From Trichoplax sp. H2 (taxonomy: Eukaryota): 64,000 nucleotides of DNA. Of this stretch, positions 1 through 55,114 are shown piece after piece. A program made the translations under genes and the position numbers. How positions within the stretch are numbered: the stretch's first letter is position 1; each line of letters begins with the position of its first letter. The stretch spans positions 992,001 to 1,056,000 of the forward strand of contig NOWV01000010.1 in assembly GCA_003344405.1 (NCBI GenBank), in the 5' to 3' direction. The notes beneath the pieces were generated by a model. That model was not told the DNA's origin, did not search any database, and saw only the letters and a list, made by a program, of their open reading frames with translations.

Positions 1-421
1 TATTACAACAAAGGGTTTATAAAAGTTATGCTTTATTGTAGGTTAGTAATGTGAAGTACAGTGAGGTAGTTACGGTAGATCAGCGTGCAAGCTGTCGTGA
101 GTAACGAGTAGAAGTATTAGACTGTGAGAGACTAACTAGAAGACTAACTGAGAGGCTAATGAACTCTGAGGTAGAAATCGCTGGTATTTATAGTTTTAAA
201 GATAGAGCACATGTAGAGAATAGGATTGTGGAATTAGATACAACATATACCATAACAGGTTACAAAATAGCAGATGATTGTAGAAAAACAGCGAGTACCG
301 TAATAACTAAATACAGTAGTCTATATATGAATGTAGAGTAAGCGGACTGTAGATCTGTCTAAATATAAGAGCAATACAACATGTCTATATTTAAGAGTAG
401 AATATAGTTACAGTATATTCT
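1..421 (-). mobile_element. Partial copy of a probable LTR (same family as 40740-41225), cut by the window edge and an assembly gap
   Basis: 1-421 aligns to 40794-41213 with about 15 differences by eye. Minus-strand TATAAATA (185-192) and AATAAA (32-37) are present in both copies. Confidence 0.7.
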
Positions 422-26800: not shown

Positions 26801-27294
26801 CAGTTTGGAGTTTAAAATTACTCTGTTGGCCTGATACAGCGATGACTGCTAGTTGTTGGAGTTTGGAAATGAAGAATGGCAATCACCATTATGATTTGTT
26901 GGTAAGCTATCTAATTTATCTACATTAATTAATAAAGGTAACAAAGTCAAAATATGCCATGCCGTAGTGCACTTGAGTGATCATCTTCATTACTACAAAG
27001 TAGAGTAGGACTTTGTATCGATGTCGGCAAGATGGGCAAAGTACAAAGTAAAAACTTGATTGACTTACCGGTAGCACTATCATCGAATGTGCGTAAATCG
27101 TAAGCATCGCAACATCGATAATTTGCAGCAGTGCCATTATCCCAAACGACAAACGCATCGGATCCTTCCATACTTCTGACGGTGCCAACATGGCCTTCAC
27201 CGCCATCTTGCTTGCCCCATTTCCAATCGGGTCCACGAATGACACGAGCACCGATACAAGGTAACAATCCTCTGGTCGAGCTGAGATTGCTCAT
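17853..27294 (-). CDS. MIB1: E3 ubiquitin ligase Mind bomb (Mib-Herc2, ZZ, Mib-Herc2, 2 Mib repeats, ankyrins, 3 RINGs)
   Basis: Exon 1 [27 protein letters not shown] finger [13 protein letters not shown] (~23300-23469). Second Herc2 [17 protein letters not shown]. Ankyrin exons at 19200-20560. Three RINGs, the last [44 protein letters not shown] (stop 17853-17855). Confidence 0.96.
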
Positions 27295-27939
27295 GCTTTC
27301 TTCTCCGTTACTGTTTTCCTAACCCCGAATAACTATCATATCAAGATGGAAATGATGGATTCACTAACCCATTGACATTTTCAACATCCATATTGATTTG
27401 TATTAAAATATCAAGGAAAAAAAAAAAAAAAATAGCTCAAAATGAAATTTCTATTAGCAAGTTGATGATACGAACATTTTTTTTTCCCCTTGCTCCTGTC
27501 GTATTCCAAAACTTGCAATCAATATGTTGAATTAAGAGTTGATTATACGCCTGTATGACCGACGGGATACTTTGATCGTTATTTTCAACAAGCAAATGAT
27601 GTTGTTACTATTGTACACTTGTCCAATATATTCAGAATAAGCGAATTGTTGGATGGCGGATACGACGTTAGTAGATCAAAGACGGCCAATGTTGTCAATC
27701 ATCATAGCCACAATATGTACAGTAAATATCAATCGCTTCTTCTCTTGTAAACTGTTGTAACAACAAAATCAAACTATTAATATCCTTCCTCCTCCATTTC
27801 AATCCTACCTCTCCAAGGCAATCAAATAATGTCGATCTTCTATAAACGAGTAGAATAGATGCAATGATGGAAAATAAAAAAAAGCGCTTACTAATACTTT
27901 AATCTTCCACTCTACAACAATCGCCTCGGTAAGCATGAT

Positions 27940-31874: not shown

Positions 31875-34800
31875 ATGAGTACAGCAACTATTTCCGATCA
31901 ACTAGTACTGACTACTGAGGCATTCCTTCTTACTTTCAACGTCGATCGAGCCCAATGTCTCCCATACAGTCGATTCAAGGTAATTTCATATTTAAAATAT
32001 GAGAAGGAAATGGTAGTGATAGTTACCAAGTTACTGTTGTGTGTTTAATAAACAATGTTATATGATAGTTTCAATCAGTGGTTAGGTACCATCTAAAAGC
32101 AATAATAAGTTATGGAATGGCTAGTGTAGTTAGTATGAATGTTATAAACAAGATTAAGAAGGCAGTGTATCTATAAAATTCATCGGTAATACTAATTTAA
32201 TATTTTAAACGACAATCTCCGGAAGCTAGAAGAGCATTTCAAGATAAGCTTAACTTTACTTATGGTAATATTTTGTTTTTACTGTTACTACTTATTTCCG
32301 ATTATAGAATTCTACTCTTAGCAATTTGGAGAGCATAACAATCATCAACATTACTGGTATAGGACAATTAACCGATATATTTTTAAGCCTACTACTAAAA
32401 AATTGTCCTAAAATAGCGACTTTGATCTGTGATGGATGTAACAACTTAACAGATGCTGTATTTCAGTCATTAATTGAATATTGCCAGGATCTAACGACTA
32501 TTAGCTTCAATTATTGCCCAAAATTAACGCATAAGGCACTACAGATATTAGGCAATTCAACATTAAAGCTCAAGAGTGCGTCATTTGTATCTTGTAATAT
32601 CATATACATCCCCTCAAATTTTGTCACATCAATAGCTAATCAAGATGGAGCTTACGATTTGAAAGGAAATCCAATCCTAAATATCGATCATAAATATTTG
32701 AAGTGTGTCAATGTCAATTCTATCGAGGATAAAATATTCAAAAATGTTCATAAACAGGATATTAGTTTTAGGTAATTAAAGTCAATCATAGTCGTTTATA
32801 ATTATAAAATGGTAGAGAATGTAGTTACGCTATCGTAGCCATTTCCTCTTACATTGATATAACTTCTTCATCATGCATCTTACTATTCATACTTATACAG
32901 AATTAATGTTATTGGCAATCGTGGAGTTGGAAAATCAACCTTTATAGCAAATTTATTGTCTTTTGCTAAGCAAACATCCAAAGATACCAATAGCAATCAT
33001 ATTCTTCATCAAGAAATTAACTCAAATCTAACTATCGATTGGAATATAACAGAGTGCACAAGTCAGGTATAAATACGCGTATACATGCTTATATTTATGG
33101 TTACATCCTATCGCTTAAGTTTATCCAAAATAAGAGATAATTTCAATATAATAAAATTGAACAAAGAGTGGTAGCAAACAGTAAAAATCATTCATTAATT
33201 AAATTTTAGTACTGAGATCGTAGTGTCATGAATCAGGAGTAATTGAAAATGAATATAACTACAATCCTGCCAATCTAGATGTACAGTATACGTACGATAT
33301 TATTGCTTGTAAGGTGACTCATATCATAAATTCAGTATATAAATGTAATATAATCTTTGCAGGTAATCTGTATGGATGAATAGTTTATTCTTAATGCTAT
33401 CATATAGTTTGATTATTCTTTGATTATTTTTTCACGATTTTAGGCTATGGCCTATCTTGCAACGGAGGAGTGCCCTCTTAATCTAATTATGTTTGATTTG
33501 ACAAACCCCGAATTCTTACATTGGTTAAATCTCGTAAATTATAAGGTTAATAACTCAACATTGGATAAGATAATGGATTGTAATCGTTATTCATACTTAC
33601 GTATAAAGTTACGTTGCTTCGTTTTATTATCTAGATAGCTAATCACAGATATTAGGAATGGGATTAACTTCATTTCGTATAATATCTTTCGTCTATCTAT
33701 CAATAAAAAATTTAAACATTTTCCATTGTCTTGTATTTTTTAATAGTGCCCAAATAGTATAACTATTCTTGTTGGCACTCATGCTGAAGAATTTAACGAC
33801 GCCTCCATGGAATGTGAATTAATTTATCAGAAAGTGGCAAACCCCAAAGATAGCCCGATAGAAGATCACTTATCGAAAGATAAATTGGATCAGATATTGG
33901 CTTCAGCGTAAGTTAATTTCTAACATTGAAACGAAATATAATTGGGCTTCTAAAGATATACCGATGCCTAAGTTCAGTGGCTACGGAACGAAACTTACAC
34001 CTAATCATTATAATTATAATTAGTTTATAATAATTGATTGTTGATATCAATAGTTACTATCGGTATAGCACATCAAATTATAACTGGTTATTGTTTAGAT
34101 GAAGAAGTACAGTAAGTATATCCCAACAATCACGCATTTGATAACCATTATTATCGAAACTTTAAGCCTTTTAACAATAAATCATTGATTGCTATTGTAG
34201 TTATTATGGAGTGTAATTATAATTAATTTACGGGTTAATATTTACTATAAGAGATAATATATCTATCTTGTAATTTAATTAGAGACTGGACTGAGGCAGT
34301 AGATTCTGACCTTGATAATCAAAGAAATGTGAAAGCTATTTGCGAATTAGCTAAATCTTCGACAAAGATTCACAAAAGCGTTTATGCGGTTAGCAACAGA
34401 AAAAATGACGAGGTTATTTACTAATTTTTATTGGAAAAATTATCTTATAACTGCTATTTGCATTAATAAAATAAATAGTTCATAATGCTAATGCGATTTA
34501 ACATTAATATAATGAGAGGTATTAATAATTGATATGATTATAAATAGGAAATGGCAAAAATTTTAGACACTTTCTTACAATGTGGCAAAGAAATTTTCGA
34601 TAATCAAGCTCAGCCATACTATTCAGTATCGAAAGATTATGAAGAGCTCTATGAAGATATCCTGAATCTATCCAATCAATATCCTTACTTTCGATTTTCT
34701 AAACTTCACTTGACCTTATCGGAAAAATATGAATCTACCATGAAAAACAATCTATTGAAACCTATACTAAAGCATTTGCATCTTCAGGTTGATAAAACTT

Positions 34801-37800
34801 TAGAGTGTATTTAGTGTTAAAATATTTGTATTTATGATTGATACGCACATAAAAGTATTAATACTTAAAAGGCCCGCCAGTAATGAAAACTGAATCAAAT
34901 CGCAATAAAAAAATATTTTCAGTGTTATTATTGACTTTGGTCATACAGAATAGATTACATTTGAACTCATAGGATTTAATGGCGCATAACCTGCTTATAA
35001 ATGCAATGTTGTGATATTATTTCTTAAGTTAGGAACAGTGTATTCCAATCGTTTATAAATTATTAACATTCATTTCTGCATTTTTTATTCTTCTATCAAT
35101 CAATTAGGGAAAGCTGTTCTTTTTAGACAGCTTTGCTGATCCATTTGTTATTTTTAATAAGAGCTGGTTAAACCAATGTCTTACTAGTAATATTCCTTAC
35201 GATCAACATGTTGATGAAACATTCCAGGTATGAACATTAGTGATAGTATTTTAGAATTTTACCGTCACAGTATGCAATAAAGTCGTTCTATCCTAAATGG
35301 GTCTTTACGTATAGTATATCGCTACTGACACATTTCAAATAATGTCCTGTATTATCTATCATGACGAGATATTAACTATTAATAAGCTATTAAACAATAA
35401 TAATTACCACAGGTGAACATTTCATCATTGTATATTAAATAGTGATAACTTTCTCCAATTGGAAATATAATTATGTGTCGTAGTCTATTCTCCATCTTAA
35501 TACCTGGCATACTACTAAATCATAACTTTTAAATAACATGATAGAGAAATATTGACGAACTGCTAATCAACACTGGAGCTTGTTATATATCTTATTTCAA
35601 CTACGACGCTATTAATGAAAGTAACGGAAAGACATATACTGCAGATTTGCCAGATTCATCGGGGCTAGACATGGTAAATATGAGTAGTTGATTTGGATTA
35701 TATTAGTATTTAAATAAAATAGATATGTAAAAAGTAGATTGGAGAATAAAATTTAGTATGTAATCGCAACTACAGAGAATTCTAGCAATAATATCTTATC
35801 CTATATGGATCTAACTCATCATGAAAGATTTTTCGTGCTCACTAGATATTTAAATGAACCAAGCACATTAGATGTTACGTCCTAAGGAATCTATACTGAT
35901 TTACATTCAGAGTCTACCCTTAGAAACTTCAAAATATTTATGACTTTGTATAAAAGATTATTAGCCTTTAAACATTTAAATCATCAACAAAGCTATTGAA
36001 TGTTGTGATTCCAAAAGATGTATAATAATGTAAAGTAGCTATAAGTATTCACAGATTTTCGAAATATCCATAACTTTGCTTCGGCAAATTATTGGCTTTT
36101 AAATATTCAAATTAATGACACTATTGAATATTGGGATGATCAAAATGTGTAATAATTTACCGTACTAATCAACATTTTAAAGTTTACAAGATGCTTGCGA
36201 CTTTTAATTAGGAAAACTGTTGGCCTACAGTAGATGAAGCTGAATTTAGCACTGAAATCAAGTATACGATTTGGAACCTTCCTGTGATAGTGTTAAATCC
36301 TTTACTGGATAAAGCTATAGCACAGTGTTGTCGATTAGCTACTAATATAATTTTATCCTGGAAAGAAGGAGTACTCTTGCGATGTGGTCATATTCAATGT
36401 TTAATTATAAGGAAAGATAACAGCAAAATCTTGGAAGATAAAAATATGACTTTGCAGTTATTTGCAAAATGTTATGATATCGATGACAAAGAAGAAATAT
36501 GCCAAGAAAGTTTCTGGAATGTCGTATTGGATTTAGGATTATGTATCGAAGCAGTTCTGCATACTTCAAAGTTGATAGTCAAGGTAATGAGTTTATACTT
36601 ACATCTTCAATATTTATATTTGGTTTCTCAGTTAAAAAATTGCATATTTGTCTTGCGTTATATTGGGCTCCATAATCATTACATAAGTGTAATAAATTTC
36701 CTATGCATGTAATCATGCGATTAAAACTGATAAATCATGACTTTTAATATAAATTCTATCTAAAGTACATTTTAGTCCTTGGTATCCAACTAATGCACGC
36801 TAATTAAATAAAAATTTTAGTCAGAGCTCAATCTCAGTCATATTTATGTTCAAATTTACGATCATAAAGAGATAGAGATTTAGATTTTACTCAGAAATAC
36901 CAAGTCATTTTTTAAATTTTGGTCAAATCTCTGACTCAGTCGTATTAGTATGCGAAGATACATAGAAGAATGGCTACTATACCATAGGATCGTAGTCTGC
37001 GTATGAATAGGTATTGCCTTTGCTGAAAAAAGGATCTCAAACATGGAGAGATTGAAATAGTACTTCTTACATTATTGTGAGCTGATTAGGTTAAAGTTGA
37101 TTCTTCTTTCGTCCTGTTGCTTGTTTCAATGAATACTTGAAGGTTTTAGTATATACTAGTATTCTATTAATTATCGTAACAGTTTAATGAAAAAATGACT
37201 AACGATTGCCGTAGAGTAAAATAAGATCTTTGATTTATTATGCTAGAAAATTCTTTAATCATGAAAAGCTTATACCTTTATCTATAGAAAGAAGTAGCTT
37301 GTCCTAATTGCGTTAAAAATACAACATCGAAAATGCACTACCTTGGTATTAATGAAGTCAAGCAAACTCTGGCAAGCAATTCCGGTAAAGAATTAGTTTG
37401 TCAACAACAGAACAAGAGTATTTCTGTCCGTGATATACAATATTTTGGTAAGATTATCTTACTTCGTAACTATTGCATCATATCTTAATGGCTATTTTCG
37501 GATATTTTAAGTACGAGCCGCGAGATTTTGTCGTCTGAAACTGATAAATTCTTTACTATTATTTGCCTAATCCTATAAACTTTACTTTCGAAAAAATAAA
37601 TTTGATGTAAATCAATAGTATTACTCAGTTAAAATTAATGTCATAAATGAGATCTAAAATTAGCAATTCAAGCCGTTTTAACTAAATTCTAACCCACTTT
37701 CAACAATTTTTATTAGTCAATGGCAAATCATCATTTTGCGTAGGCCATCAATTAAGTTATTCTAATGATACTTTAGGCTGTACACTGTGCAAAAGGTTTG

Positions 37801-40800
37801 TTAACATTATCAAAGAAATGCATTATACACTTTTAGAAGATATGAATTACGTTATTAGAACTGCTACTGACCATCTATTTCTCCTAAATTCAATCGTAGA
37901 TATCCGAATTCCTTTATACCAGTGCTTTGTTGTCAAGACTGTGGTCGATGTCATCGCTGTCTTACCGACTTTAAAGTAAATTTTTATTTTTTAAATGATT
38001 AAATACATTTTTATACTTTATCCGTTCAATTATAATATTCGAGCAAGTATAGTATTCATTACAGTAATGTGTTTGATGACCTTTGCTGATTTTATTTCAG
38101 TGGTTGAATAATTTAATCATTTTCTTGTGTAGAAATGTTATTTACTTATGGTTATATTATTTCATATAGGTATTAATGGAAAGTTTAGAATGTAAAAAAC
38201 TAATTAATCGCTCGTTCTGGAGCGAAACTAGCAATATTATAAGCATTGGCTCTGTTTTACAAGCCTGTGGTGAATATGCTTGCAGTGCTATTGGTGCAGT
38301 CTCACTAGACACAATCTATCCAAATAAATTTGAATTTTCAGTGGATGCGCTGTTATCTTCCGTCTTTTACTTCTATTTTGGCTTAGTATCGGAGCATCAT
38401 GATAGTAGATTACCTCCAGGATTTACTGATAAATCTGTTGGCTTCTCTTTAATCGATAATAAACTTTTTATTAACGCTAAAGAAACCGATTACAGTCACC
38501 ATGATACATCATTTCAATTGGGATCACATAATAAACTTTCTTGTTGTTTAGATCGGATATCACAAACTGAGGTAATGGGATAACAGTAGGATGTGAAATT
38601 TTCTGAACAGCTCACGAAATATTAATTCTCATTTATATTTAATAGTATTTCTGTGGCATGGTCTTCCTATTTTATTCTATTGATCCTTTGCTTCGTTATG
38701 TTTAAATTTTATTTTATTTTAGGTTCGCGTATCATTCGTAGTGGACAGTATCATTATCGCATCTTTTGTGCATGAATATCACAATCAAGGGTATTACCCA
38801 ATGATATTTTGTTCTCATGACTGTTCTCGATTATTTATTCATTCAACTATACCTGCAGTAAGTGTTGAAATTAGATTTTAAGTTGGACTTATAGCATTAA
38901 ATATTATAAAGGGCAGATATATATGTCATTAATATACAGGTATGACATATAATCTAATAATTGTGATCATTTTCCGACTCTTTCGCACGGCAGATTGACC
39001 AAGTAGGAAAGCGAGCTGCTATACCGGTATCAAAAAGGAAAAATTATGTTGATATTGGTGTAGTTATTAAAGACTACAGCAAATTGGTAAGCTGTACATA
39101 CATTAAGACTAGTATTTTTAATATTTTCTGTATTGGATAGACTACTGATGATTTTAGTGAAAACCGATGACATATCATCAATCAATGACATCAATCTCAA
39201 AATAAGTACAGTAATAGCCTTAATAGCGTACTTTACACGGACTAAATATCGCAGTGGATTAGATTCCTATTTCATCAAGATTGTCGCTATGTTGACAGAA
39301 TTCCCTCTAGATACAAAATATAAATATAAAGTCATTTCCTGTGACCTTTCCTGATATAAAAAGATATATTAAAATATGTTACTCTCTAATTATATAAAAA
39401 ATGATAAGATTGTCTATATTAGATTAGAATAAAATTGATCAATGATGATTGCAGTCATTACAAGTCAATCGTATGCCAATTTAGCTACTAAATTGCTATA
39501 CTATATTAATTAAAAGATTGGACTTTGATTGATACACGATAGAAGAAAATAGAGATAATTAATTAAAAAAGTCAGGCACTGGGTTGCCCGCTTGAGGCAA
39601 TTTACATCTACGTAGTTTACTGTATTTTCTTCTCTACGATATTCGTCTTTCATAAAATGGTTTTCACGATTGGAATAATCATATTTATTTTTACTAAAAT
39701 TATAAACCAAACAAGAAATATGACCGCTAATTGTTATTTATTTAGAATACCAATTATATAGCATCTTCGATTGGAGAGATTGTTCATATATTAGAAAAGA
39801 CAAATAATGACCACTATAAAGCGAAAAATTTATCTGAACAGAGCGGTTTAATTCCTATAGACTGCATCAAGGTTTTATCCACAAATAGTATTAGATAAAG
39901 ATTTTAATGATTGAATTTAATATCATTATCATAACCTCTACTACTAAATGACTAATTTCAGAAAATATTGGCCATTGAGAAAGCTAGCTTACAAAAAGGA
40001 GATTGGATAGAATTTTTTGATGCAGCTGATAAAAGCAATGCTGAAGTCCACATCCTTCAAGTGAGTGCTGTTAAATTGCAAGAAATTGATGTTGAAATCC
40101 AAGTAGACTTGCAAAAAAAAGAGAAGCGAACGATTCCTATTGACAGTCCTAATATCCATCCACTTGGATGGGCTCTCTCAACAAAATATGAAGTCACTTC
40201 ACCTACAGGTCTTTACTTTAATACCATATCAGCAGAATTTAGATTTCTGAAGGACTTGAGTTTTGTTCATTTAAGCTAAAGTATACTCTATCCTCTTATT
40301 AAACTAAACATGTCCCTTTATTTTCATTTGATATAGGTTATGTCTCCAAACTTACTAACGCTATTAGTGATGGTAAACTCTATTATAAGGGTCAACGAGT
40401 TGAAATAAAGTATTCCAGTAGTTGGTATAAAGGAACTGTGTTAAAGACGAGATATTGCGATACATTCAAGGTATGATAAATAAATGCAATATGATAGCTT
40501 GCAGAATTGATATACAAACTTGATAAACTGTTAGAGAATTTCAATCGAGATATAAGTTTGATCTACTAGTGGTGTAGTTGATTTATATATAGGATCTTTT
40601 CCATACCTTATTCACGTAAGGATTGAAAATGTGATATCTTTAATAGACGAGTTATGTGGATTCAGAATGGCATAGCGTAGCCAGAGTAAATTAATTACTA
40701 GCATGAACCACAAGAAGTTTTCTTTTAGTATTTCGTATTTGTGATGGAGGGTTCAATATCTCAGAGTATTGAGATTTAGTCGCCATTTACAATTATTACA

Positions 40801-46800: not shown

Positions 46801-49800
46801 ATATCTTGTCATGCCCCAGAAGCTCCGATTTTTGTTGTTGGTACACATTGTGATAAAGTAAGTACGGAAGAAAATGAAAACTAAAATAGACCAGAAGTTA
46901 AACTATCAAAATTTTATTAGTATTAATTGTAAAGTAAGCTTTAGTTCTGAACAATTAACAAGGTTGAAAAAAGTGAAATACCAAAAGGTCGCCTCCAAAA
47001 GTTTTATCCGCAGATCCAAGGCTTTTTTACAGTTAGCTCAGCAACTGGCCAAGTTAGTATTGTAGATTAGCAGTGCCCTAATGAATTCATTATAGGAACA
47101 AAATCTTTGACTTTTACTAAATCGCCTTCTTTAGACCTTCCTAAAAACTTTGTCATAGAGCGATACCACGATAGAGTCAATTAGTAAACTGGAAGGCATA
47201 AATAGTCTCTAATTATATAATTAAATTTCCAGTTTATCTTCATCGTAAATGATATCATTTTTCAATTTACGGAGCAAGTTTTGCATCATCTGGTCTTGTA
47301 AGTCCAATTATTTTGATACCTTTAGGGCATCCAAAAACTTTATGGCGATTTAATCGCTGTTACGTTGAAGCAAAAGTACATGGGTGAAAAAATTCCAAAC
47401 ATTTGGTTGGAGTATGAGAACTCTATTATAAGGTGAAATAGTTTGGAAGTCCTGTAAATTAAATTCATTATGAGATGTAAATATAGAAATTACTTAAAAT
47501 AATTTTCCAGTAAGAGGTTTACTATCAGGCTTAATCTTTGATATTTGCCTATTCTAGATAAGCTTTAGATGGTACATGACTTTACATTTATAAAAATGAA
47601 AATATTAATATATATTAAATCGTTAAATAAATTAATAGCTGCCGTAATAGGAGTAGTGTCCTATCGTGGAAGGAGATAACAGAAATTGCTTGCAACCATG
47701 GAATTTTCCAAGATGATGAAGTAATTTCTATATGATAATTAATTGGATTCTCATGTATGTGTTTGAAACTGAAATTTATAGAGATAGTAAAACAACAAAT
47801 CTCCTTCTCGGTTGCCCTCTTTAGCATCTTAAGTAGTTCAGTGACATCCCATTTTAATTACCGTAAAGTAAGTGTAGAAACAGCTTTGCAGCATCGCTTA
47901 TACATGAACCAACGCCAATTTGATTAGGTATACAAATAAATAGCATACGTATTATGAAAATAAACCTCATGTTTAATCATAGGAGAGAGCATGTGAAAAC
48001 ACGAGCAGTTTAATGGAGTCCGTTGTGTAACTCGGAATGCTAACAATTGCTCATCATCAACTACAGTAATCGCATATTTCCATTGCATTAACTATATAGA
48101 CATAAAATTAGACTAAAATATGCGCAGATAATATTAGAAAAATTACCATTACCTAAATGCGATCGATACTAATCAACTACTTCTATATATTATTAACTAT
48201 CACTTCTTAATTAAAATTATTACGATACGTTATTAGATTCGCGAAGCTGTCAAGTTACTAACAGATCTTGGATCAATCCAACATTTCGATACGGAAATGT
48301 TAAGAGAGGTAGTTGTAATCAATCCTCAGTGGATTGTAGATGTTATGGCTTGCGTTGTATCGGTCCACGATAGCCCTATAAAGGTAATTATGTAAGGGAA
48401 ATCAACCATTACCTTTTAAAATATTTAACTTGCAGTTATACCTATCGGCAACTTCTATCTAACAGTGAATGTTGTAACTGAATTCATGTTTGCATTGCTT
48501 CTTATTAATGATAAAAGACCGACTTCATATAATTCATTATTTTATAGAATGGTCGATTTCATCATAGTGACATGCAAAAGATTTGGTCAAAATATAATTC
48601 CAACTTACATAAATGGTTATTGGGCCTGACTGAACAATTCGATCTAAGCTTCTCACTACCTAATAAAAACACTAATTTAGTTCCATGCTTGTTAAACGAT
48701 GATGACGAAGAAGTAAGTATTTTATTTTTCAATACAAGTGCTTGAAAATTTTAATAATCGGATGCAAATTATAAGATTGAATCCAAACTTGTTCTATTTC
48801 ACGTTCTTCAAATTTTACTTCGTTATTAGACTGATGATTTAGATAAAGAAACCTTAGAAATGGACGGTATGAAGGAAACTAAAATGGTTTATACTTTTCA
48901 GTATCTGCCAGCAGGCTTATTTAATCGACTGCAGGTATGACCATGTTATAACGTTACTTTTCACATCCAGCTATAGTTAAAAGGATTTAGAATTTTGATG
49001 AACGAATCATAACATTAGGTCATAATACAAATTTTGTTACTTTGTAAATGTTAGGTTCGGCTATGTGAATTTACTGAAGACCAAACTATTAGCAAGCGAG
49101 GATCCAAATTAAAGAAGAATGGAAATTTTGCCGTCTTAAAACAATCAGAGTTAGTGATATAGCTAAAATTTCTTGTTTGACCTTTTTAGATATTAGATTA
49201 AACCTTTCATGGCTGTCATGTGAGAAATTAATTTTTTATATAGTCTTTTGAAACTCATATGGTCTCAAATAGCTAAAATTTCCCATTTAATTCTTTCTAG
49301 ACTTGAAATTAAGAGTTTTTTAGTTCTATTTAAATGTATTGATTAATTTATAAGTACTTAGCCTCAAGGTAAAACTTGCATTATCAAGATTTATCAGAAT
49401 TTCACGTTTAATCTTCTCTAGAAGCAGAGTTAAAAGTTTTGCTTACTTGAAAGCAATAGATTTATTTATATACAGTTCATTTAAGATAGTAAATATAATG
49501 TAAAAGGAAACAATCTATCAATTTACTGACATCTCCCAATCTATATGAATAACATTACTACCTTATCGATAATATCATGAATACCGAAATTAGGGCATTA
49601 AAATACGAGTATTGATTACAGTCGCACTCCGCTAACAGCCAGATTTACTGGAATTATTTAAGATTTCTTAGTAAATAAGAGTTTGATAATTAGCATTTAA
49701 TTATATCTGGAACATTCATACGCCTATAATCACAAATTGCCTTCCTTGCGACAACTGAAATTATATGTCCAAAATTAGAATTTCATTTTAATTTATTTGC

Positions 49801-52800
49801 ACACTTATCAGTTTGAAATTCACTCATAATCAGCTGTTTACGAGTTAATGACGAATTACCATGCGTTTGCTTACCTTCTTGTGTCATAAGAGATTACTCA
49901 CCTTTAATAACTGGAATTATTGATCAGAGAATGATTTAAGATTATAAAGTATACTTACTGATCTATTTATTTCATATAATGGCAATAGAAATAACTTAAT
50001 AGACCTTAACGTCAATGGTTTACGACCTGAAAATATGCTGTATCTAGTCAATGAGGTTTTGGAATCGTTAACTGCAGACGCTTTTCATGGCGTTCATTTT
50101 TACTATTTGGTACCTTGCCCTCACTGTTTACAAAATGTAAAGTTAACAAGTTTTATTTACTTTAGAGCTAGATTATAATTAAGTTTTGAAATGTTAAATA
50201 CTAATATGAGATCATGTTTTTGCATGATGGCGTAGGGATCTCGCGATCCATCCATGTTTTCTTCTAAGCGAATACGTAGGGCAAGAGAAGTCAAGGCGAT
50301 ATTTCTGCAATGTGATGCCAATTTCCATACAGTTTCCATTTCAGAGTTAGAAAGTATGGCATTATTTCTACTTAAAACTATGTTATAACTTAATCTTGTG
50401 ATCCTGATTACACAAATTTTGCAAGATGGAGATGCTTGAATGCATACTAAGATTATAAATACAATATATATACTATATTTGATACCAAAATCAAGGAATC
50501 TTACCACCAACATCCAGTGATGAATTCGACGTTCACTTACAAAATGCAATGCAAGGCTTGGATGCTTTAAGCGATAGTATTATGACAGACGTATACGTAA
50601 GTTACTGCGAAGATGATTTACCTGCAGAAGAAAATTCTAATGAAACATTACATGTCAAGAGACTGATGAAATCACTAGAGGGTGAAGGCTATAAATGGTA
50701 AACAGAATAGCGATTTTAATAATACTCTCCAGTAAAATGAAATATTAAGAGTTTCTACATAGAAAACAGATGTTGGCTAATGTCATTTAATATTTAAAAT
50801 TAATTTATGATTAAGCTATTCTCTAAGAATACGTTGCTTTTTATTGCTCCTGTGAACAAAGTGTTTCTAATAAAAATCTTACCTTTATTAACTCATGAGT
50901 TGTTAAAAATTATATCAATGTAGACGATGGAGATATGTGAAAATTGATATTGATATAAATTTTGATTTAATAGCGATGCTAGAGATTATCGAGAAAACTA
51001 TAGCCTAGAAAATATAGCTGTTGGAATGAAACAGTCACGAGTAAGTTCGTAGTCTATCCCTAGATAGCTTCTAGGTTACAACTTTCATGAAATAATTTCG
51101 AATGCATCTAACCCACTTACGCTATTTTAATGAGAGTCTAAATCCAAATATGTTTGATGTTGAAGAAATAATATCTATTTTAGGTCGATAATAGCTACTT
51201 TAATGTTAATAATAGTGCGCAAATTTTAGCCAAATATCCATGTGAATGTTTCTTTATTTAAACTGAAAATTCGAGGAGATAATAATCAATCAATCTGATT
51301 TCTAATCATTGCTCAATTTAGGCTATTATAATTATGTTGTCTGATAATTATGAACGTAATGAACAGTGCCGATCTGAATTCTCTCATGCTTATGAACTGT
51401 TAAAAAAACCAATCATTTTAGCGGTTATTGGTAAAACTAATAATTGGACAAAAACAAATCTTGGCTTTCTTGTATCTAGTATGGTAAGAAGTGAATATCA
51501 TAAGCCTAAAACTGTTTTCTTTGTTCATACATAGGCATTCTTTAAAAATTTTATATGTTATTTCACATAATGCTGTTACTAATATGATATATTTTATCTA
51601 CCAGTTATATATAGATTTTTCCAATATGCAATTATACAATGAGAAACTAGATGAAATTATTGATCAAGTAGAAAAAAAGACCCATAAGAAAGTGGTAAGC
51701 ATATAATCATTAGGTAATTTAAATAAACATATTAAATGGAAGGCTTTCATCACGAGTAATAACACCTACTAATTGGGTTTCATTATTGATTTTATACGTG
51801 AATATATATTATTGATTTCTTTCCTTTAGCAACATTTGCAGCAGACGGATTGCTTTATTAGTTACTGCTGGAAAAATTCAGCCAATGCTTGCGAATTAGG
51901 AATTCAGCAGGTGGATGGTGCAATTGGAAAAGGTTTGTGAACTATCCAGCTAATATAATGTAAATCTATATTGAACTCACACTTTCAACTAATAAATTGA
52001 ACGCGTCTAAGTTTTCAAAGTCTTTTGTAGCCGATATAGACGGGATTAACTTTAAATTATGTGTCTTGAACTGCTAATAGCTAAATTGTTTATATGAATT
52101 AATATAATTAATCTAATTTGCACATTTACTATAATTCTCATAATGGCAGTTGATCCTAGAGACTTGAAGGATCAACTGAAAGCAAAGGGAATAACTTGTT
52201 GGATGGACATAGAACAGCTAGGAAAGGTATTAGCACATCCATTACTCAGAAGAAATAAGTTTTTATAAAAACTTGCAGATGATTCATTATGAATTTTCTA
52301 TACTTTTTTTAAAAGATTAAATACTTGAAAGTTATCGTAATTGACTTGATCTACTTATATGCAAACTAACCAACGTTTAAATATTTGTGGTATTGGTATA
52401 ACTTTCTTCAGGCGGGTTTATTTGAAGAAATTTCCATTGGTCTACGGAAATCAAAATTGTTTGTAGCTTGTGTTTCCGATGAGGTAAAGCTAGCTTTGAC
52501 ATAATAGTTTATGTATGTTATATTATCGGTTGCAGATGGTTTTATAACATAATATTAATTTACTAGAACTTCTCTAATAACTTTGCTTTATAACAATAAT
52601 TTGCTCTATTAGATTAGGTATCATTTATTAAATTTCTTCGTTCGCTTTTAATAGTACGTGAAATCCAATAATTGCATAATGGAATTTCGGTTTGCTGTGA
52701 CTACATTACGACTACCAACCGTTTTAGCCATTATAGGAACAGGCATCAAATGGCAGTATTCAGAAGTACGAATAGGATGAGATTACTTTAATTTTTTATT

Positions 52801-55114
52801 ATAAGTTTATGTAAGGGTTTCAATTAAAAAACTTTAAAGTATAGCTAGCTGAAGAATAATTTTATTGTCGACGGGTATTTTATAGGTTGGAATGTTGGCA
52901 GCTAATTTGCCCATGGTAAGTGCCATATTCTTTTACAGTAATTAATTAAGTTAAATTAAATAAATGAATAAAAAATAATTATTAAATCCTTAAAATCTTT
53001 TTATATATACTTGTACAGTTCAATTTGCAAGGAAATGATTCAGAAATGTCGTCCGAAAAACTTCTATCATTCATAGTGGAGAAAATTTCTACTTTAATCA
53101 AGCCCGAAGACAATCTATTGGCAACAGCCCCTAATATTGGAAAGGAAAGGAAATTACAGGACCGATCAGCCCAATTTCAGGTAAATTTAATGGATAGTAA
53201 ATAACTACAGTGAAAGTTACATTGTTACGTAAAATCATTATTACTGCTGATAAAAATTTGCGACATGATACTACGAGACACAGTATATCGACATCTGATA
53301 CTCTGACACTGCTAGATACAGAAATAATTTTCAATTTTATCGCTATAAGAATATCAAGTGGTTGATTCTTAATATTATAATGTTTAAGAGATTAATCTGG
53401 CATGATTTAGATTATTGTATCAAATTCATAACTTACGCTAAGAGATATTGTTTTATTTATAAAATCTTGATTAAGTAATTGCTTTCTCTACGATTTAATT
53501 ACATATTATCGATGCAATATTCACTTATATTTTGTAAGGTAAAATGATATCATTGAGAAATATTGCGGTGAATTTAAGAAATTTTTATTCTTATAGGAAA
53601 TGCTTGAATTAGCACAGCGAAATTTAATTCGCCAAGTCAGCAGTGTAGCTAATAGAATATCGACATCGTACCCTCGGCTATTCCTCATCGATTGGGACGA
53701 TAAACATGACGTAATACACGTATATTGCGGATAACTTATTTGACTGAATTTTCATTTAACTATGAAATTAAAATACGGTTAACAAGCATTTTAAATCGCA
53801 TTAAATTCGAGATGTGTTGTTACTATTTAGTAATTGATACTAAAAATTGTGTATTAAACAATCAATAGATTTACAAACTGCTTTCAACTATCGTCTGTGT
53901 CAGTCTGATAGTCACAATTAATGAAGTAAAATTAAAATTTACTCCATCATGAAGACTATCAATATCGAAATAGGAATCTTTGCAACTGATCCAATTTTAT
54001 CAACTTAGGGATCAGCAAATTTGGAATCCTCTAGAGAGTATTACATAAAAGTATTATGTGAGCATGAAGAGGTAAATTGCTTTACAGATATTATTATGAT
54101 ATCTTATGTCGCATTTAGTGCAGATAACTGGATGATTTTCTAGTAGACAAAAGTATAAATAGATTAAAAGGCAAGCGTAAAATGAGTAAAGGTTACGCAT
54201 AGAATTGCTATATATTATTCATACGATTAATTGGATAATTTTTATTGCAGGGTTGGCATTGTCCAGAAAGTGGAGGCACATTTCCCATCCCAGGTGGTTC
54301 ATCACAAATGAAATTGTTGGTAAAAAATACAGCAAAACATTTACTTCGAGTTATGTCTATCATGAAGCACAACAATACAGGATTTAATTCGCTTAATCAA
54401 TCGAATGAAGATGAATTTTTTGATTATGTAGCATCGGTATGTTACAGAGTTTATATTATAAATGTTATAAATTCCAACTTTCAACAAAATCAATTTATAA
54501 TCAAATGATTAACCAATTATCCCTCCCTCCTTTACTAGGCTGCTAAATCAAGTGATCTTAATATCGGACTTAATTTTACATCTTTCATATCATTTATGGA
54601 TGAATTAAAAATTGAAAATATCGGATTATCAAGGTTAGTAGATAGATTCACTAACTATAGCTCGCTGACCATAAAAATTATAAGTACGTATAACTGGTGT
54701 TGACTTCTGTCTTTAACTGTTCTTTTCTTGCTTCTATGCAAATAACTAGTGTGTGTGCTTTATATCCAGTTTGTGCACTGCTCCACTGTGATCATCTTTA
54801 ATCATACTAAAGCTATTAATTGTAGTCATCAATTTCAATTTTGTTGTTCTATCAAATACAGGACTCATCTTCCGAATGGTAAAGTGTTATGGTTATGCGA
54901 CAAGCATAAAGCTGCTAAACATTTTACTTTAGATCATCTAAGTAGTGACTCATCGAATCAACAAGCCAAGCAGATTAATCATGTCGCTGATGTTCAACAA
55001 CCAAGTGTTACATTGGCAAAGCCAAGGACTAAATTTGCAGCAGCTGCAGTTACTGTAGCGGCATCCCAGGGATTATCCAAGAGTTCAAAGTCTAGCGTTT
55101 GCTCTGTTATGTAA
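31875..55114 (+). CDS. Giant kinase-less Roco-family protein: LRR-Roc/COR(degenerate)-Cys rich-SPRY-SH3-MBT-Tudor-Tudor-LRR/EF-Roc-COR-TIR-TIR-Cys/His domain-CaaX; >50 exons, ~2,800-3,000 aa
   Basis: GT-AG exons join in compatible phase from a probable ATG at 31875 to TAA 55112-55114. The second Roc is canonical (KLMMVGLGGAGKTSL, TDGIDI, WDFAGQTLYYNTHQFF, VVGTHCDK) and its COR reads VVINPQWIVDVM. The start and a few small exons are uncertain. Confidence 0.85.
32308..32771 (+). other. Roco gene: N-terminal cysteine-containing (FBXL/AMN1-type) LRRs
   Basis: CPKIATLICDGCNNLTDAVFQSLIEYCQDLTTISFNYCPKLTHKAL. Confidence 0.85.
32901..37447 (+). other. Roco gene: first, degenerate Roc-COR module
   Basis: P-loop RINVIGNRGVGKST. 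WLNLVNYKCPNSITILVGTHAE parallels Roc2 WLSSISCHAPEAPIFVVGTHCD. COR-like LKHLHLQGKLFFLDSFADPFVIFNKSWL, LSWKEGVLL and VACPNC. No DxxG G3 motif seen. Confidence 0.7.
38170..38857 (+). other. Roco gene: SPRY-like domain
   Basis: FGLVSEHHDSRLPPGFTDKSVGFSLIDNKLF..KLSCCLD..VSFVVD..GYYPMI matches the SPRY PGW..S.gy/GCG/yP pattern. Confidence 0.7.
39050..39870 (+). other. Roco gene: SH3 domain (two exons)
   Basis: VVIKDYSKLNTNYIASSIGEIVHILEKTNNDHYKAKNLSEQSGLIPIDCIK. Confidence 0.7.
39962..42408 (+). other. Roco gene: MBT-like repeat followed by two Tudor/chromo-barrel domains
   Basis: LQKGDWIE..IDSPNIHPLGWALSTKYEVTSPTG (MBT); KGQRVEIKYSSSWYKGTV..KIHYDGWQDSYDE; KVGDKVEAKWHSTWYKATI..FVRYDGYSSSWDTW. Confidence 0.75.
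40740..41225 (-). mobile_element. Probable solo LTR (~486 bp) inside a Roco-gene intron, antisense to the host
   Basis: On the minus strand it starts TGTAGTG and ends CATCACA. TATAAATA (40978-40985) lies upstream of AATAAA (40825-40830). Flanks are GTATT/ATATT (4 of 5 match, possible TSD). A second copy is at 1-421. Confidence 0.6.
44908..46030 (+). other. Roco gene: typical LRR array interrupted by an EF-hand-like motif
   Basis: Repeated LxxLNLSxNxLxxLP. Loop DEDGNHVLDYLE at 45643-45678. Confidence 0.9.
46053..50350 (+). other. Roco gene: canonical Roc GTPase and COR domain
   Basis: G1 GLGGAGKT, G2 TDG, G3 WDFAGQ, G4 GTHCD, G5 VSS. COR MGEKIPNIW, LTDLGSIQHF, LPAGLFNRLQVRL, LVPCPHC. Confidence 0.95.
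50495..53180 (+). other. Roco gene: two tandem TIR (TIR_2-like) domains
   Basis: TIR1: DVYVSY..IAVGMKQSRAIIIMLSDNYERNEQCRSEF. TIR2: DCFISYCW..LKAKGITCWMDIEQLGKAGLFEEISIGLRKSKLFVACVSDEYVKSNNCIMEF. Confidence 0.9.

What the first reader, a model, noticed from the sequence alone, without database searches (positions are those of the whole stretch)
31875..55114. One-gene signalling machine: kinase-less double Roc-COR protein with SPRY, SH3, MBT/Tudor readers, tandem TIRs and a CaaX box
Seen: more than 50 exons splice in compatible phases into one ORF carrying these motifs in order. Known: well-studied animal Roco proteins (LRRK1/2, DAPK1, MFHAS1) have a single Roc-COR, and none has TIR, MBT or Tudor domains. 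Inference: this is a membrane-anchored, GTP-switched sensor-effector, analogous to an innate immune receptor, with LRR/SPRY inputs and TIR output replacing the kinase. I do not recognise a characterised protein with this architecture, though unstudied invertebrate homologues may exist.
Basis: partly seen in the sequence, partly recalled or inferred. Interest (0 to 1): 0.9.

Follow-up and report, generated by a model that had tools for sequence, protein, structure and literature searches.

The report
Known Trichoplax Roco–TIR giant gene
This is a real 54-exon placozoan gene for a 2,928-residue kinase-less Roco GTPase with TIR domains and a lipid-anchor motif; it is already annotated and belongs to a widespread but functionally unstudied invertebrate family.

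Summary
I built a gene model from splice sites, spliced RNA contigs and homologues. It has 54 GT-AG exons, 31875-55114, and encodes 2928 aa. It is letter-for-letter identical to GenBank RDD46213.1 of Trichoplax sp. H2. It is the same gene as T. adhaerens TRIADDRAFT_57945.

RNA contigs splice across the suspected break (42796>43535) in 3 of 4 runs, in frame. That supports one gene.

- **At or above Pfam cut-off:** LRR, Roc, COR-A, COR-B, two TIRs, MBT, a chromo/Tudor-like barrel and, marginally, SH3.
- **By profile-profile comparison only:** SPRY (95%) and the N-terminal second Roc-COR (99%).
- **By conservation:** 99 of 133 fetched relatives end in Cxxx.
- **Absent:** a kinase domain.

It is not new. 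A 2014 review names TRIADDRAFT_57945 as a ROCO protein with an extra N-terminal Ras-like domain. A 2019 paper describes two ~3000-aa LRR+TIR placozoan proteins as ecTIR-DC 14. One search found 156 long relatives, from hemichordates to rotifers.

Function is untested. Possibly new here are the conserved cryptic second Roc-COR and the near-invariant TIR2 glutamate.

The parts
31875..55114 (+). Whole coding region: 54 exons, 2928 codons plus stop. Exon 1 also carries a 5' UTR that runs upstream of 31800.
   Evidence: Model. Identical to P0137. RNA contigs; X9 record 16 holds 483 nt upstream of 32306.
32308..32771 (+). Exon 2: N-terminal cysteine-containing LRR region (residues 36-190).
   Evidence: RNA block 32306-32769. 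Family consensus GC..LTD repeats. Pfam only sub-threshold: LRR_RPS2 E 0.051. The relative P0020 has LRR_4 at the equivalent place.
32901..33907 (+). Exons 3-5: Roc1, a divergent G domain (about residues 190-335). P-loop G195-T203 is intact. Switch II reads DLTN, with no Gly. G4 reads THAE.
   Evidence: hhalign of the N module against the Roc-COR2 profile: 99.1%, E 1.8e-18. Pfam gives only P-loop-level hits. Motifs read.
34283..37447 (+). Exons 6-11: COR1, covering COR-A-like and COR-B-like parts (about residues 336-715). It ends in the VACPNC motif.
   Evidence: hhalign searches cover template positions 7-443 of 446. COR-B tail E 0.11 on exon 11. W589/G592 are nearly invariant.
37717..37975 (+). 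Exons 12-13: conserved Cys/His cluster, a putative zinc finger of unclassified type.
   Evidence: C754 and C757 are invariant; H727 and G758 are nearly invariant in 34 sequences. Exons fixed by the 315-nt contig constraint. No Pfam hit.
38170..38857 (+). Exons 14-15: SPRY-like domain (about residues 800-947).
   Evidence: hhalign against Pfam-validated SPRY segments of relatives: 95.3%, E 2.4e-8; reversed control 0.3%. Language-model neighbours are Neuralized 0.93 and SPRY 0.89. No Pfam or PDB sequence hit.
38994..39871 (+). Exons 16-17: SH3 domain (residues 969-1021).
   Evidence: SH3_2 at 22.2 bits against a cut-off of 21.8 on P0137. SH3_1 E 2.6e-4 on exon 17 alone.
39962..40208 (+). Exon 18: MBT repeat (residues 1043-1104).
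   Evidence: PF02820 at 38.7 bits, cut-off 22. 29.6 bits on the exon alone.
40337..42408 (+). Exons 19-20, with a 1.66-kb intron between them: two Tudor-knot/chromo-barrel-like units (residues 1121-1169 and 1180-1230).
   Evidence: On P0137: Chromo_MORC2_6th 27.0 bits (cut-off 27), MSL3 chromo-like 24.1, Agenet 22.4. On exon 20 alone: Tudor-knot 26.7 bits (cut-off 20.8).
40794..41213 (.). Dispersed repeat inside intron 19. It is not part of the protein.
   Evidence: A 96.4% copy lies at window 1-421. Very high RNA-contig depth and many different loose ends at 40739/41225.
42523..44559 (+). Exons 21-26: linker that joins the two halves. It includes the splice 42796>43535 across the suspected gene break.
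   Evidence: Joints in X4, X6 and X9. In-frame translation. Contig arithmetic: 250+83+64 = 397 nt upstream of 43535.
44764..46062 (+). Exons 27-28: SHOC2-like LRR block, plus an EF-hand-like loop at 45643-45678.
   Evidence: LRR_8 at 70 bits in 5 stretches. Best solved matches are SHOC-2 and LRRD1. EF-hand-like consensus DxDxxGxLDxxE in the family; EF-hand_1 E 0.068 in P0020.
46063..46854 (+). Roc2 GTPase (residues 1862-1980), with canonical G1, G3 and G4 motifs.
   Evidence: PF08477 at 91.6 bits. GK[T] 131/131, DFAGQ 131/131 at D, G and Q, THxD Asp 129/131.
47395..50352 (+). COR-A2 (residues 2035-2172) and COR-B2 (2193-2333).
   Evidence: PF16095 at 123.8 bits and PF25497 at 130.6 bits. LRRK2 E 1.6e-76 and C. 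tepidum Roco E 2.5e-64 in the PDB.
50496..51694 (+). Exons 40-43: TIR1 (Pfam TIR 2377-2451). It has Glu2442 where most relatives have L, M or I.
   Evidence: PF01582 at 33 bits. Glu at this column in 9 of 122 sequences. All joints seen in RNA contigs.
51830..52915 (+). Exons 44-48: TIR2 (TIR_2, best stretch 2546-2618), with Glu2601.
   Evidence: PF13676 at 78.3 bits in 2 stretches. Glu in 116 of 121 sequences and invariant in alignment A1. Aligned to a Glu of the Cat1 TIR, E 2.7e-4.
53597..54940 (+). Exons 50-54, first part: conserved C-terminal region with no known family (about residues 2693-2870).
   Evidence: Colinear with P0001, P0018 and P0006. Invariant E2693, E2696, R2700, C2747, E2748 and H2754. 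No Pfam family.
55100..55111 (+). CaaX box: CSVM, Cys2925.
   Evidence: 99 of 133 fetched relatives end in Cxxx, typically KS[KR]AC-a-a-[MLSQ]. C2925 is nearly invariant.

Best explanation
Shown: this is one expressed 54-exon gene. It is the Trichoplax gene annotated as RDD46213.1 (H2) and TRIADDRAFT_57945 (T. adhaerens). It encodes a 2928-aa kinase-less ROCO protein of the invertebrate family that Kamm et al. call ecTIR-DC 14.

Domain order: Cys-type LRR, degenerate Roc1-COR1, Cys/His cluster, SPRY-like, SH3, MBT, two Tudor/chromo barrels, linker, SHOC2-like LRR with an EF-hand-like loop, canonical Roc2-COR2, TIR1, TIR2, a conserved unnamed C-terminal region, CaaX.

Inferred mechanism:
- The CaaX Cys is prenylated and holds the protein on a membrane.
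- The canonical LRR-Roc2-COR2 unit works as in other Roco proteins, as a nucleotide-dependent conformational and dimerisation switch.
- Switching brings the TIR domains together. TIR2 keeps the glutamate that enzymatic TIRs need, so the output is either NAD+ cleavage or TIR-TIR scaffolding.
- The N-terminal half supplies partner or ligand recognition and regulation through its LRR, pseudo-Roc-COR, SPRY, SH3, MBT and Tudor modules.

I put identity and architecture at about 0.95 and the mechanism at about 0.4.
For: - Gene model: 54 GT-AG exons, identical to P0137 over 2928 aa. The JGI model P0023 spans the same locus from 31875 to 55111.
- RNA: the joint 42796>43535 appears in 3 of 4 runs. 15 joints are listed, and two ~3.3-4.7 kb contigs run from the Tudor exon into Roc2 and beyond. 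The chain is in frame. Depth agrees with the model in 23 of 28 bins.
- Domains: Pfam on P0137.
- Second Roc-COR: hhalign 96.9% with 3 sequences and 99.1%, E 1.8e-18, over 392 columns with 83 sequences; reversed control 0.1%. P0020 has 2 stretches each of COR-A and COR-B. N-terminal COR-like hits occur in 13 of 134 relatives.
- SPRY: 95.3%.
- CaaX: 99 of 133.
- Roc2 motifs are invariant; the TIR2 Glu is present in 116 of 121.
- Background: enzymatic TIRs need a conserved Glu and self-association (PMC10022894, introduction passage). Roc-COR acts as a functional unit (PMC4104024, section 5).
Against: - Pfam sees no Roc, COR or SPRY in the N-terminal half of P0137, P0023 or P0018.
- A plain Roc-COR2 HMM finds no N-terminal hit in the placozoan proteins.
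- BLASTP of half 1 against half 2 finds nothing.
- Roc1 lacks the switch II Gly and the G4 Asp. The paralogue P0018 has also lost the P-loop. Roc1 may therefore not bind or hydrolyse GTP.
- The TIR1 Glu is not conserved: 9 of 122.
- I did not verify that the Glu of Cat1 aligned is its catalytic residue.
- The RNA evidence is assembled contigs, not reads. Only 15 of 41 joints were printed. X4 and X9 are only guessed to be RNA. Several links rest on arithmetic from contig lengths and depths.
- No experiment on any family member was found.
Confidence: 0.75

Rival explanations
1. The TIR domains are non-enzymatic adaptors. On this reading the protein is a scaffold in a Toll/IL-1-like pathway and recruits other TIR proteins, as proposed in general terms for ecTIR-DC proteins.
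For: Kamm et al. report that adaptor or regulator roles have been hypothesised for ecTIR-DC proteins, and that these may stand in for MyD88 (PMC6321704, passages). TIR1 lacks the Glu in 113 of 122 relatives. That fits at least one scaffold-type TIR.
Against: The TIR2 Glu is present in 116 of 121 sequences and is invariant in the 34-sequence alignment. The best solved match of TIR2 is an NAD-degrading CRISPR-associated TIR (its activity is recalled, not checked). Conservation of one residue does not prove catalysis, so this rival stays open.
Confidence: 0.3
2. The protein has a non-immune role. On this reading it regulates the cytoskeleton, vesicle traffic or chromatin-linked signalling. The MBT, Tudor and SH3 modules would read cellular partners rather than pathogens.
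For: Civiero et al. link Roco proteins of Dictyostelium and LRRK2 to chemotaxis, the cytoskeleton and vesicle traffic (PMC4104024, section 5). MBT and Tudor-like folds are usually methyl-lysine or methyl-arginine readers (recalled). The gene is covered in RNA-type runs X4, X6 and X9, from three studies, with no stated immune challenge.
Against: A conserved CaaX argues against a mainly nuclear chromatin role. Tandem TIRs are rare outside immunity and cell-death signalling (recalled). Nothing here discriminates firmly between the readings.
Confidence: 0.2
3. The N-terminal module is not a Roc-COR. On this reading it is an unrelated P-loop region, and the profile match is an artefact of iterative searching.
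For: Pfam and the plain HMM miss it in the placozoan proteins. Identity in the hhalign match is only 14%. The 83-sequence profile came from three rounds of my own HMM search.
Against: The un-iterated 3-sequence profile already gives 96.9%, E 1.4e-10, over 391 columns in the right order. The reversed control gives 0.1%. All 83 segments end at least 200 residues before the main Roc-COR, and 1 of 84 was dropped for overlap. Independent Pfam COR-A and COR-B second stretches occur in P0020. Shared W..G and CPxC motifs are visible.
Confidence: 0.07
4. These are two adjacent genes, split near 42.8-43.5 kb, joined only by read-through or by assembly chimeras.
For: The two halves share no detectable pairwise similarity. 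Shorter relatives exist that have only the second half, for example P0001 at 1373 aa. Contigs cannot prove single molecules (tool note).
Against: A GT..AG joint 42796>43535 appears in 3 of 4 runs, with in-frame coding exons on both sides. Two independent annotations give one gene. The paralogue P0018 and 82 relatives of 2500 aa or more have the same colinear layout.
Confidence: 0.03

Closest known systems
RDD46213.1 'putative serine/threonine-protein kinase pats1' (Trichoplax sp. H2) and XP_002113972.1 TRIADDRAFT_57945 (T. adhaerens)
   Same: This is the same gene. The H2 protein is identical to the window's product over 2928 aa. The T. adhaerens model covers the same exons from 31875 to 55111.
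   Different: The T. adhaerens model is 114 residues shorter because some exons are missing or mis-set. The database names ('pats1 kinase', 'non-specific serine/threonine protein kinase') do not fit, since no kinase domain is present.
ecTIR-DC 14 family (label from Kamm et al. 2019 after Gerdol et al. 2017): long invertebrate LRR-Roc-COR-TIR-TIR-CaaX proteins, e.g. Ptychodera P0020, Branchiostoma P0021/22/24, Lineus P0025, many molluscs
   Same: 45-56% identity over Roc-COR. The order is the same: N-terminal LRR, cryptic Roc-COR, often MBT or SPRY, LRR, Roc-COR, two TIRs, conserved C-terminal region, CaaX.
   Different: The middle 'reader' modules vary. SPRY is Pfam-clear in 23 relatives but cryptic here. 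The SH3 and the double Tudor-like unit were seen by Pfam in few of the others. This protein keeps a Roc1 P-loop that the few alignable relatives lack. I could not read Gerdol 2017 or the supplement of Kamm 2019, so the label rests on the text of Kamm 2019.
Paralogue RDD43325.1 (Trichoplax sp. H2, 3019 aa) = TRIADDRAFT_58269 + TRIADDRAFT_64096
   Same: Colinear over both halves: 22% identity for residues 50-946 and 45% for residues 1499-2860. It also ends in a CaaX, CILL.
   Different: Its Roc1 P-loop is lost (GSEDSHKN) and its G4 is degenerate. Pfam calls no SH3 or Tudor-like domain in it.
LRRK2, LRRK1 and Chlorobium tepidum Roco (solved Roc-COR proteins)
   Same: LRR followed by Roc, COR-A and COR-B. 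PDB profile hits: LRRK2 E 1.6e-76, CtRoco E 2.5e-64, LRRK1 E 5.6e-62.
   Different: This protein has no kinase or WD40 output and carries TIR domains instead. It also has a second, degenerate Roc-COR, reader domains and a CaaX box.
MFHAS1 (kinase-less animal LRR-Roc-COR)
   Same: A kinase-less LRR-Roc-COR core. One Branchiostoma relative is even labelled MFHAS1 by its source.
   Different: As described in PMC4104024 (section 5), MFHAS1 is the simplest arrangement: LRR plus ROC-COR only. It has no TIRs, CaaX, second Roc-COR or reader modules.
Plant TIR-NLRs and SARM1 (it may work like these; it is not a member)
   Same: A repeat sensor, a nucleotide switch and a TIR output that needs self-association and a conserved Glu (PMC10022894, passage). 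Glu2601 is conserved.
   Different: The switch is a Roc GTPase, not a STAND ATPase (NACHT reaches only E 0.11 on the P-loop exon). The domain order is reversed, with the TIRs C-terminal. Enzymatic activity is untested.

Membership tests
ROCO proteins | A Roc GTPase domain directly followed by COR | tested here: met
   On P0137: Roc 91.6 bits (residues 1862-1980), COR-A 123.8 bits (2035-2172), COR-B 130.6 bits (2193-2333). LRRK2 and CtRoco are the best solved Roc-COR matches.
ROCO proteins | Canonical G1, G3 and G4 motifs in Roc | tested here: met
   Roc2 has GLGGAGKTS, WDFAGQ and GTHCD, near-invariant across 131 sequences. Roc1 meets only G1 (GNRGVGKST). Its G3 reads DLTN and its G4 reads THAE.
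Second (N-terminal) Roc-COR module | Homology to Roc, COR-A and COR-B over the whole module | tested here: met
   hhalign 99.1%, E 1.8e-18, 392 columns, template positions 7-443 of 446; reversed control 0.1%. The un-iterated profile gives 96.9%. Pfam and the plain HMM fail on this protein. The fold was not tested.
LRRK/pats1-type Roco kinases (the name given by the databases) | A protein kinase domain C-terminal of COR | tested here: not met
   No kinase family appears among the Pfam hits at E<=0.1 on P0137 (25 of 27 shown, the rest weaker than E 0.027). The region after COR-B holds TIR domains.
ecTIR-DC 14 (Gerdol 2017, as cited by Kamm 2019) | About 3000 aa, LRR plus TIR, no transmembrane segment, conserved among invertebrates and absent from vertebrates | tested here: inconclusive
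   Length 2928 aa, LRR and TIR are met. Relatives were listed from hemichordates, amphioxus, nemerteans, molluscs, brachiopods, annelids, rotifers and a nematode, with no vertebrate among the 120 listed. I did not test for transmembrane segments. The defining paper is not held, and the supplement naming the two H2 proteins is closed.
Enzymatic (NADase) TIR domains | TIR fold with the conserved catalytic glutamate | tested here: inconclusive
   TIR_2 at 78.3 bits. Glu2601 is present in 116 of 121 relatives and aligns with a Glu of the Cat1 TIR. That this column is the catalytic one rests on motif recall. TIR1 has Glu in only 9 of 122.
Enzymatic (NADase) TIR domains | NAD+ cleavage on self-association | not testable with these tools
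   This needs a biochemical assay.
CaaX-prenylated proteins | C-terminal Cys-aliphatic-aliphatic-X | tested here: met
   The protein ends in CSVM. 99 of 133 fetched relatives end in Cxxx. Prenylation itself was not tested.
SPRY/B30.2 domains | Match to the SPRY profile | tested here: inconclusive
   Pfam SPRY does not hit, and PDB phmmer gives 0 hits. hhalign against SPRY segments of relatives, whose seeds reach Pfam E 7.9e-20 to 1.5e-12, gives 95.3%. Language-model neighbours are Neuralized and SPRY.
MBT repeat | Pfam PF02820 above its cut-off | tested here: met
   38.7 bits against 22.
SH3 | A Pfam SH3 family above its cut-off | tested here: met
   SH3_2 at 22.2 bits against 21.8, which is marginal. 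SH3_1 at 15.4 bits is below 22.9.
Tudor/chromo-barrel | A Pfam Tudor-knot or chromo-like family above its cut-off | tested here: met
   Chromo_MORC2_6th at 27.0 against 27 on P0137. On exon 20 alone: Tudor-knot 26.7 against 20.8, and MSL3 chromo-like 31.1 against 28. These are royal-family barrels, not a canonical PF00567 Tudor.
NLR/STAND immune receptors | A NACHT or NB-ARC ATPase | tested here: not met
   Only a P-loop-level NACHT hit, E 0.11, on exon 3. None appears on P0137.

The most novel reading that the evidence does not exclude
The whole family, from placozoans to amphioxus, may carry a so far unrecognised, degenerate second Roc-COR at its N-terminus. Roco GTPases act through COR-mediated dimers. 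The two modules of one chain could therefore form a built-in pseudo-dimer, with a pseudo-GTPase partner gating the active Roc2. On a membrane this would control oligomerisation of a catalytically competent TIR2. That would be a Roco-based animal counterpart of the plant TIR-NLR logic.
Probability: 0.2. Interest if true: 0.7.

Novelty: already known. Interest (0 to 1): 0.38.

Why it matters
The gene and its family are already on record, so the finding adds no new entity. The family is still worth attention. It is large, conserved from placozoans to cephalochordates, expanded in molluscs, and has no experimental study that my searches found.

It joins a LRRK2-type GTPase switch to TIR domains with a near-invariant glutamate and a lipid anchor. 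If the TIR output is enzymatic, it would be an animal example of a non-STAND nucleotide switch driving a TIR effector. If the N-terminal module is a pseudo-Roc-COR partner, it would offer a natural single-chain model for Roc-COR dimer regulation, which is a debated point for LRRK2.

Tried and rejected
Gene-model attempts
- The first-pass exon chaining missed or mis-set many exons.
- Self-trained chaining over-split the gene into 180 exons and was discarded.
- One enumeration found nothing because its splice-score threshold excluded the true donor after 47432. It was solved by homology.

Searches that gave little
- Per-exon Pfam gave nothing significant for Roc1, COR1, the Cys cluster, SPRY or most TIR exons.
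- PDB phmmer with the SPRY exon gave 0 hits.
- phmmer of exon 10 against 1.84 billion representatives gave 2 hits: a 139-aa fragment, and a low-complexity insect protein that I take as spurious. This missed the gene's own database entry.
- BLASTP of half 1 against half 2 found no similarity.
- A plain HMM search with the SPRY-like region reached only the paralogue P0018.
- The scan's own notes held nothing for this place or these words.

I used P0018 by id instead.
- Gerdol et al. 2017 is not held. Supplements are closed, so I could not confirm which two H2 proteins Kamm et al. mean.
- PMC8494770 held none of my search terms.

No verdict or not used
- Complex prediction of COR-B1 (535-715) with COR-B2 (2190-2335) gave score 0.00 and no verdict. 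The alignment was not used and the fold was uncertain.
- Run X5 showed only short unspliced contigs and no joints, so I did not use it as support.

Literature phrase searches
- Searches for 'two/tandem/double/second ROC-COR' and 'two Roc domains' returned 21 papers. None of the 15 listed appeared, from title and abstract, to concern two modules in one chain.
- For 'ROCO' + 'TIR domain' + 'NADase', none of the 12 papers listed, out of 499 holding at least two of the terms, held 'roco'.
Full report
**What the window is**

The window is AT-rich (28-39% GC). In 31-56 kb the + strand holds many short open frames with recognisable motifs. An LRR/P-loop exon searched against longer proteins found invertebrate LRR-Roc-COR-TIR proteins. 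The best named placozoan hit was T. adhaerens TRIADDRAFT_58269 at 45% identity. tblastn of those proteins onto the window gave colinear matches from 44845 to 53695. The second half is therefore an ordinary member of that family.

**RNA evidence**

A word search found 17 runs holding the stretch 38000-47999. Shares of about 0.3-0.45 fit the exonic fraction. I laid four runs from four studies on 31800-51799. X6 is on record as RNA. X4, X5 and X9 are only guessed to be RNA.

X4, X6 and X9 carry spliced contigs. X5 has only short unspliced pieces. Fifteen GT..AG joints were printed and 26 more were counted but not shown.

The key joint is 42794>43533, which reads as 42796>43535 once the 2-letter cut ambiguity is allowed for.

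Two contigs link the halves. X6 record 15 (4723 nt) and X4 record 4 (3296 nt) each hold 395 nt upstream of 43533. By their depth values they also cover place 42225, in the Tudor exon. With exons 42132-42408, 42523-42605 and 42733-42796 the count is exact: 250+83+64 = 397 = 395+2. The chain from 42132 to 47052 translates without a stop, from the Tudor-like domain through the LRRs into Roc2.

This is contig evidence, not read evidence. It cannot by itself prove single molecules.

**Gene model**

All 18 introns read from the RNA contigs are GT..AG. Fifteen come from listed joints, one from a loose end and two from contig arithmetic. An exon-chaining script trained on them recovered 17 of the 18 without hints. 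With hints it gave a 54-exon chain.

I then corrected uncertain exons:
- Contig lengths fixed two stretches: 315 nt between 36583 and 38170, and 735 nt between 38571 and 42132.
- Homologues fixed others.

The final model has 54 exons, all GT-AG, with an 8787-nt CDS of 2928 aa. It starts at the ATG at 31875 and ends ...SKSSVCSVM.

Two checks on the model:
- It has 42 introns in the laid stretch. The tool counted 41 joints plus one dropped at a repeat.
- Exonic letters implied by depth match the model within 10 nt in 23 of 28 bins for X9, and almost exactly in the second half for X4 and X6.

**Identity**

A search with the paralogue's Roc-COR region among long proteins returned TRIADDRAFT_57945 (P0023, 2814 aa). 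That protein lies on the same exons from 31875 to 55111. Its 90% cluster holds P0137, which is RDD46213.1, 'putative serine/threonine-protein kinase pats1', Trichoplax sp. H2, 2928 aa.

My independently built protein equals P0137 at every residue.

**Domains**

Pfam on P0137 gives:

| Domain | Residues | Bits (cut-off) |
|---|---|---|
| Roc | 1862-1980 | 91.6 |
| COR-A | 2035-2172 | 123.8 |
| COR-B | 2193-2333 | 130.6 |
| LRR_8 | five stretches | 70 |
| TIR | 2377-2451 | 33 |
| TIR_2 | two stretches, best 2546-2618 | 78.3 |
| MBT | 1043-1104 | 38.7 |
| SH3_2 | 969-1021 | 22.2 (21.8) |
| Chromo_MORC2_6th | 1181-1228 | 27.0 (27) |

MSL3 chromo-like, Agenet and Tudor-knot fall below their cut-offs on the full protein. 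Tudor-knot and MSL3 chromo-like pass on exon 20 alone. No kinase family appears. The database names 'pats1 kinase' and 'non-specific serine/threonine protein kinase' are therefore misnomers.

*The N-terminal Roc-COR.* In the N-terminal half Pfam sees only P-loop-level hits at 186-252.

Evidence against a second Roc-COR:
- The two halves show no BLASTP similarity.
- A plain Roc-COR2 HMM does not hit the N-terminus of the placozoan proteins.

Evidence for it:
- A profile of residues 185-730 with the paralogue P0018 and the 139-aa fragment P0015 aligns with a 15-sequence Roc-COR2 profile at 96.9%, E 1.4e-10, over 391 columns.
- Three rounds of local HMM search collected N-terminal segments from 84 long relatives. 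After dropping one that overlapped a main Roc-COR, the 83-sequence profile gives 99.1%, E 1.8e-18, over 392 columns covering 7-443 of 446 template positions. The reversed control gives 0.1%.
- The hemichordate relative P0020 has two Pfam stretches each of COR-A and COR-B.
- 13 of 134 relatives show an extra N-terminal COR-like hit with the plain HMM.

I accept a second, divergent Roc-COR.

Its G domain is partly degenerate. The P-loop GNRGVGKST is intact here. Switch II reads DLTN and G4 reads THAE. The paralogue has lost even the P-loop. Among the few relatives alignable at these columns, only this protein keeps it.

*SPRY.* Pfam and PDB sequence searches fail. Language-model neighbours are Neuralized (0.93) and SPRY (0.89), which is a lead only. 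Relatives carry Pfam-clear SPRY domains at the equivalent position after the N-terminal module, with E from 7.9e-20 to 1.5e-12. A profile of the window's region with its paralogue aligns to 52 such segments at 95.3%, E 2.4e-8. The reversed control gives 0.3%.

*Other conserved features.*
- A Cys/His cluster precedes the SPRY-like domain. C754 and C757 are invariant.
- An EF-hand-like loop precedes Roc2.
- A C-terminal region is conserved but has no family.

*CaaX.* 99 of 133 fetched relatives end in Cxxx, typically KS[KR]AC-a-a-[MLSQ]. Many of the 34 exceptions are labelled partial or are shorter Roco proteins.

*Roc2 and the TIR glutamates.*
- Roc2 motifs are essentially invariant.
- The TIR2 glutamate, E2601 in the CxMEF motif, is present in 116 of 121 relatives. 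It aligns with a Glu of the CRISPR-associated TIR Cat1.
- The equivalent TIR1 position is Glu in only 9 of 122, this protein among them.
- Enzymatic TIRs need a conserved Glu and self-association (PMC10022894, introduction passage).
- That E2601 is that residue is an inference from the motif.

**What is known**

- Civiero et al. 2014 (PMC4104024; section 5 and the Figure 1 legend read) report at least 17 ROCO genes in T. adhaerens. They list MBT, SH3, LRR, CARD and TIR among the domains drawn. They name TRIADDRAFT_57945 as one of three proteins with a Ras-like domain N-terminal of ROC, and they call that arrangement novel. I could not see the figure.
- Kamm et al. 2019 (PMC6321704; passages) state that the only two TIR proteins of Trichoplax sp. 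H2 with LRRs are about 3000 aa. They classify both as ecTIR-DC 14 II after Gerdol et al. 2017, and they consider functional prediction speculative. RDD46213.1 (2928 aa) and RDD43325.1 (3019 aa) fit that description. The supplement that would confirm it is closed, and Gerdol 2017 is not held.
- One search found 156 relatives of 1660-5284 aa, of which the best 120 were listed. They come from hemichordates, amphioxus, nemerteans, molluscs, brachiopods, annelids, rotifers and a nematode.
- Phrase searches found no paper on two Roc-COR modules in one chain, or on ROCO with TIR NADase. This covers only the held library and those phrases.

**Mechanism**

The evidence best fits a prenylated, membrane-bound Roco switch. 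Its canonical LRR-Roc2-COR2 unit would control the proximity of the C-terminal TIRs. TIR2 is the likely active or signalling unit, and the N-terminal half would provide recognition and regulation.

Shown: the gene structure, expression as spliced RNA contigs, the domain content and the conservation patterns. Inferred: prenylation, GTP switching, the TIR output and any immune role. An attempt to predict binding of the two COR-B parts gave no verdict.

**Verdict**

The novelty claim is not, because the gene, its family and part of its odd architecture are on record. The family-wide cryptic second Roc-COR and the conservation pattern of the two TIRs may be new details worth a specialist's look.

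Noticed in passing
window 40794-41213 and window 1-421: A dispersed repeat of about 420 bp lies in intron 19, with a 96.4% copy at the very start of the window. That copy abuts a 20-N gap at 422-441. The intronic copy has very high RNA-contig depth and many different flanks, so it is multi-copy and transcribed somewhere. Its 65-aa ORF (40898-41095) has no Pfam hit.
   Followed up: partly
window 21293-27318, minus strand: The upstream neighbour on the opposite strand looks like a Mind bomb-type E3 ligase gene. MIB_HERC2 matches at 26947-27318 (58 bits), and the Mind bomb SH3 repeat matches at 21293-21634 (32.6 bits).
   Followed up: partly
window 45643-45678 (residues 1722-1733): An EF-hand-like loop, DEDGNHVLDYLE, sits just before the last LRRs and Roc2. 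The family consensus is DxDxxGxLDxxE, and P0020 has a weak EF-hand_1 hit, E 0.068.
   Followed up: partly
window 53597-54940 (residues about 2693-2870): A conserved C-terminal region lies between TIR2 and the CaaX box. It has invariant Glu, Arg, Cys and His residues and motifs such as LCEHE.GWH and NGK..WLC. It is shared with hemichordate and mollusc relatives but belongs to no Pfam family.
   Followed up: partly
window 31497-31874: The 5' UTR is long. X9 record 16 holds 483 nt upstream of the exon 2 acceptor, which places the transcript start at or before about 31497 if exon 1 is contiguous. An in-frame stop lies just upstream of the ATG at 31875.
   Followed up: no
window 3048-3578, minus strand: A 176-aa open frame has an acidic, serine-rich tail and no Pfam hit at E<=0.01. 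It is probably the last exon of another gene.
   Followed up: no
P0137 cluster and UniRef names: Source names for this family are inconsistent with the domain content found here. They include 'pats1 kinase', 'non-specific serine/threonine protein kinase', 'LRRK1' and 'MFHAS1'.
   Followed up: yes
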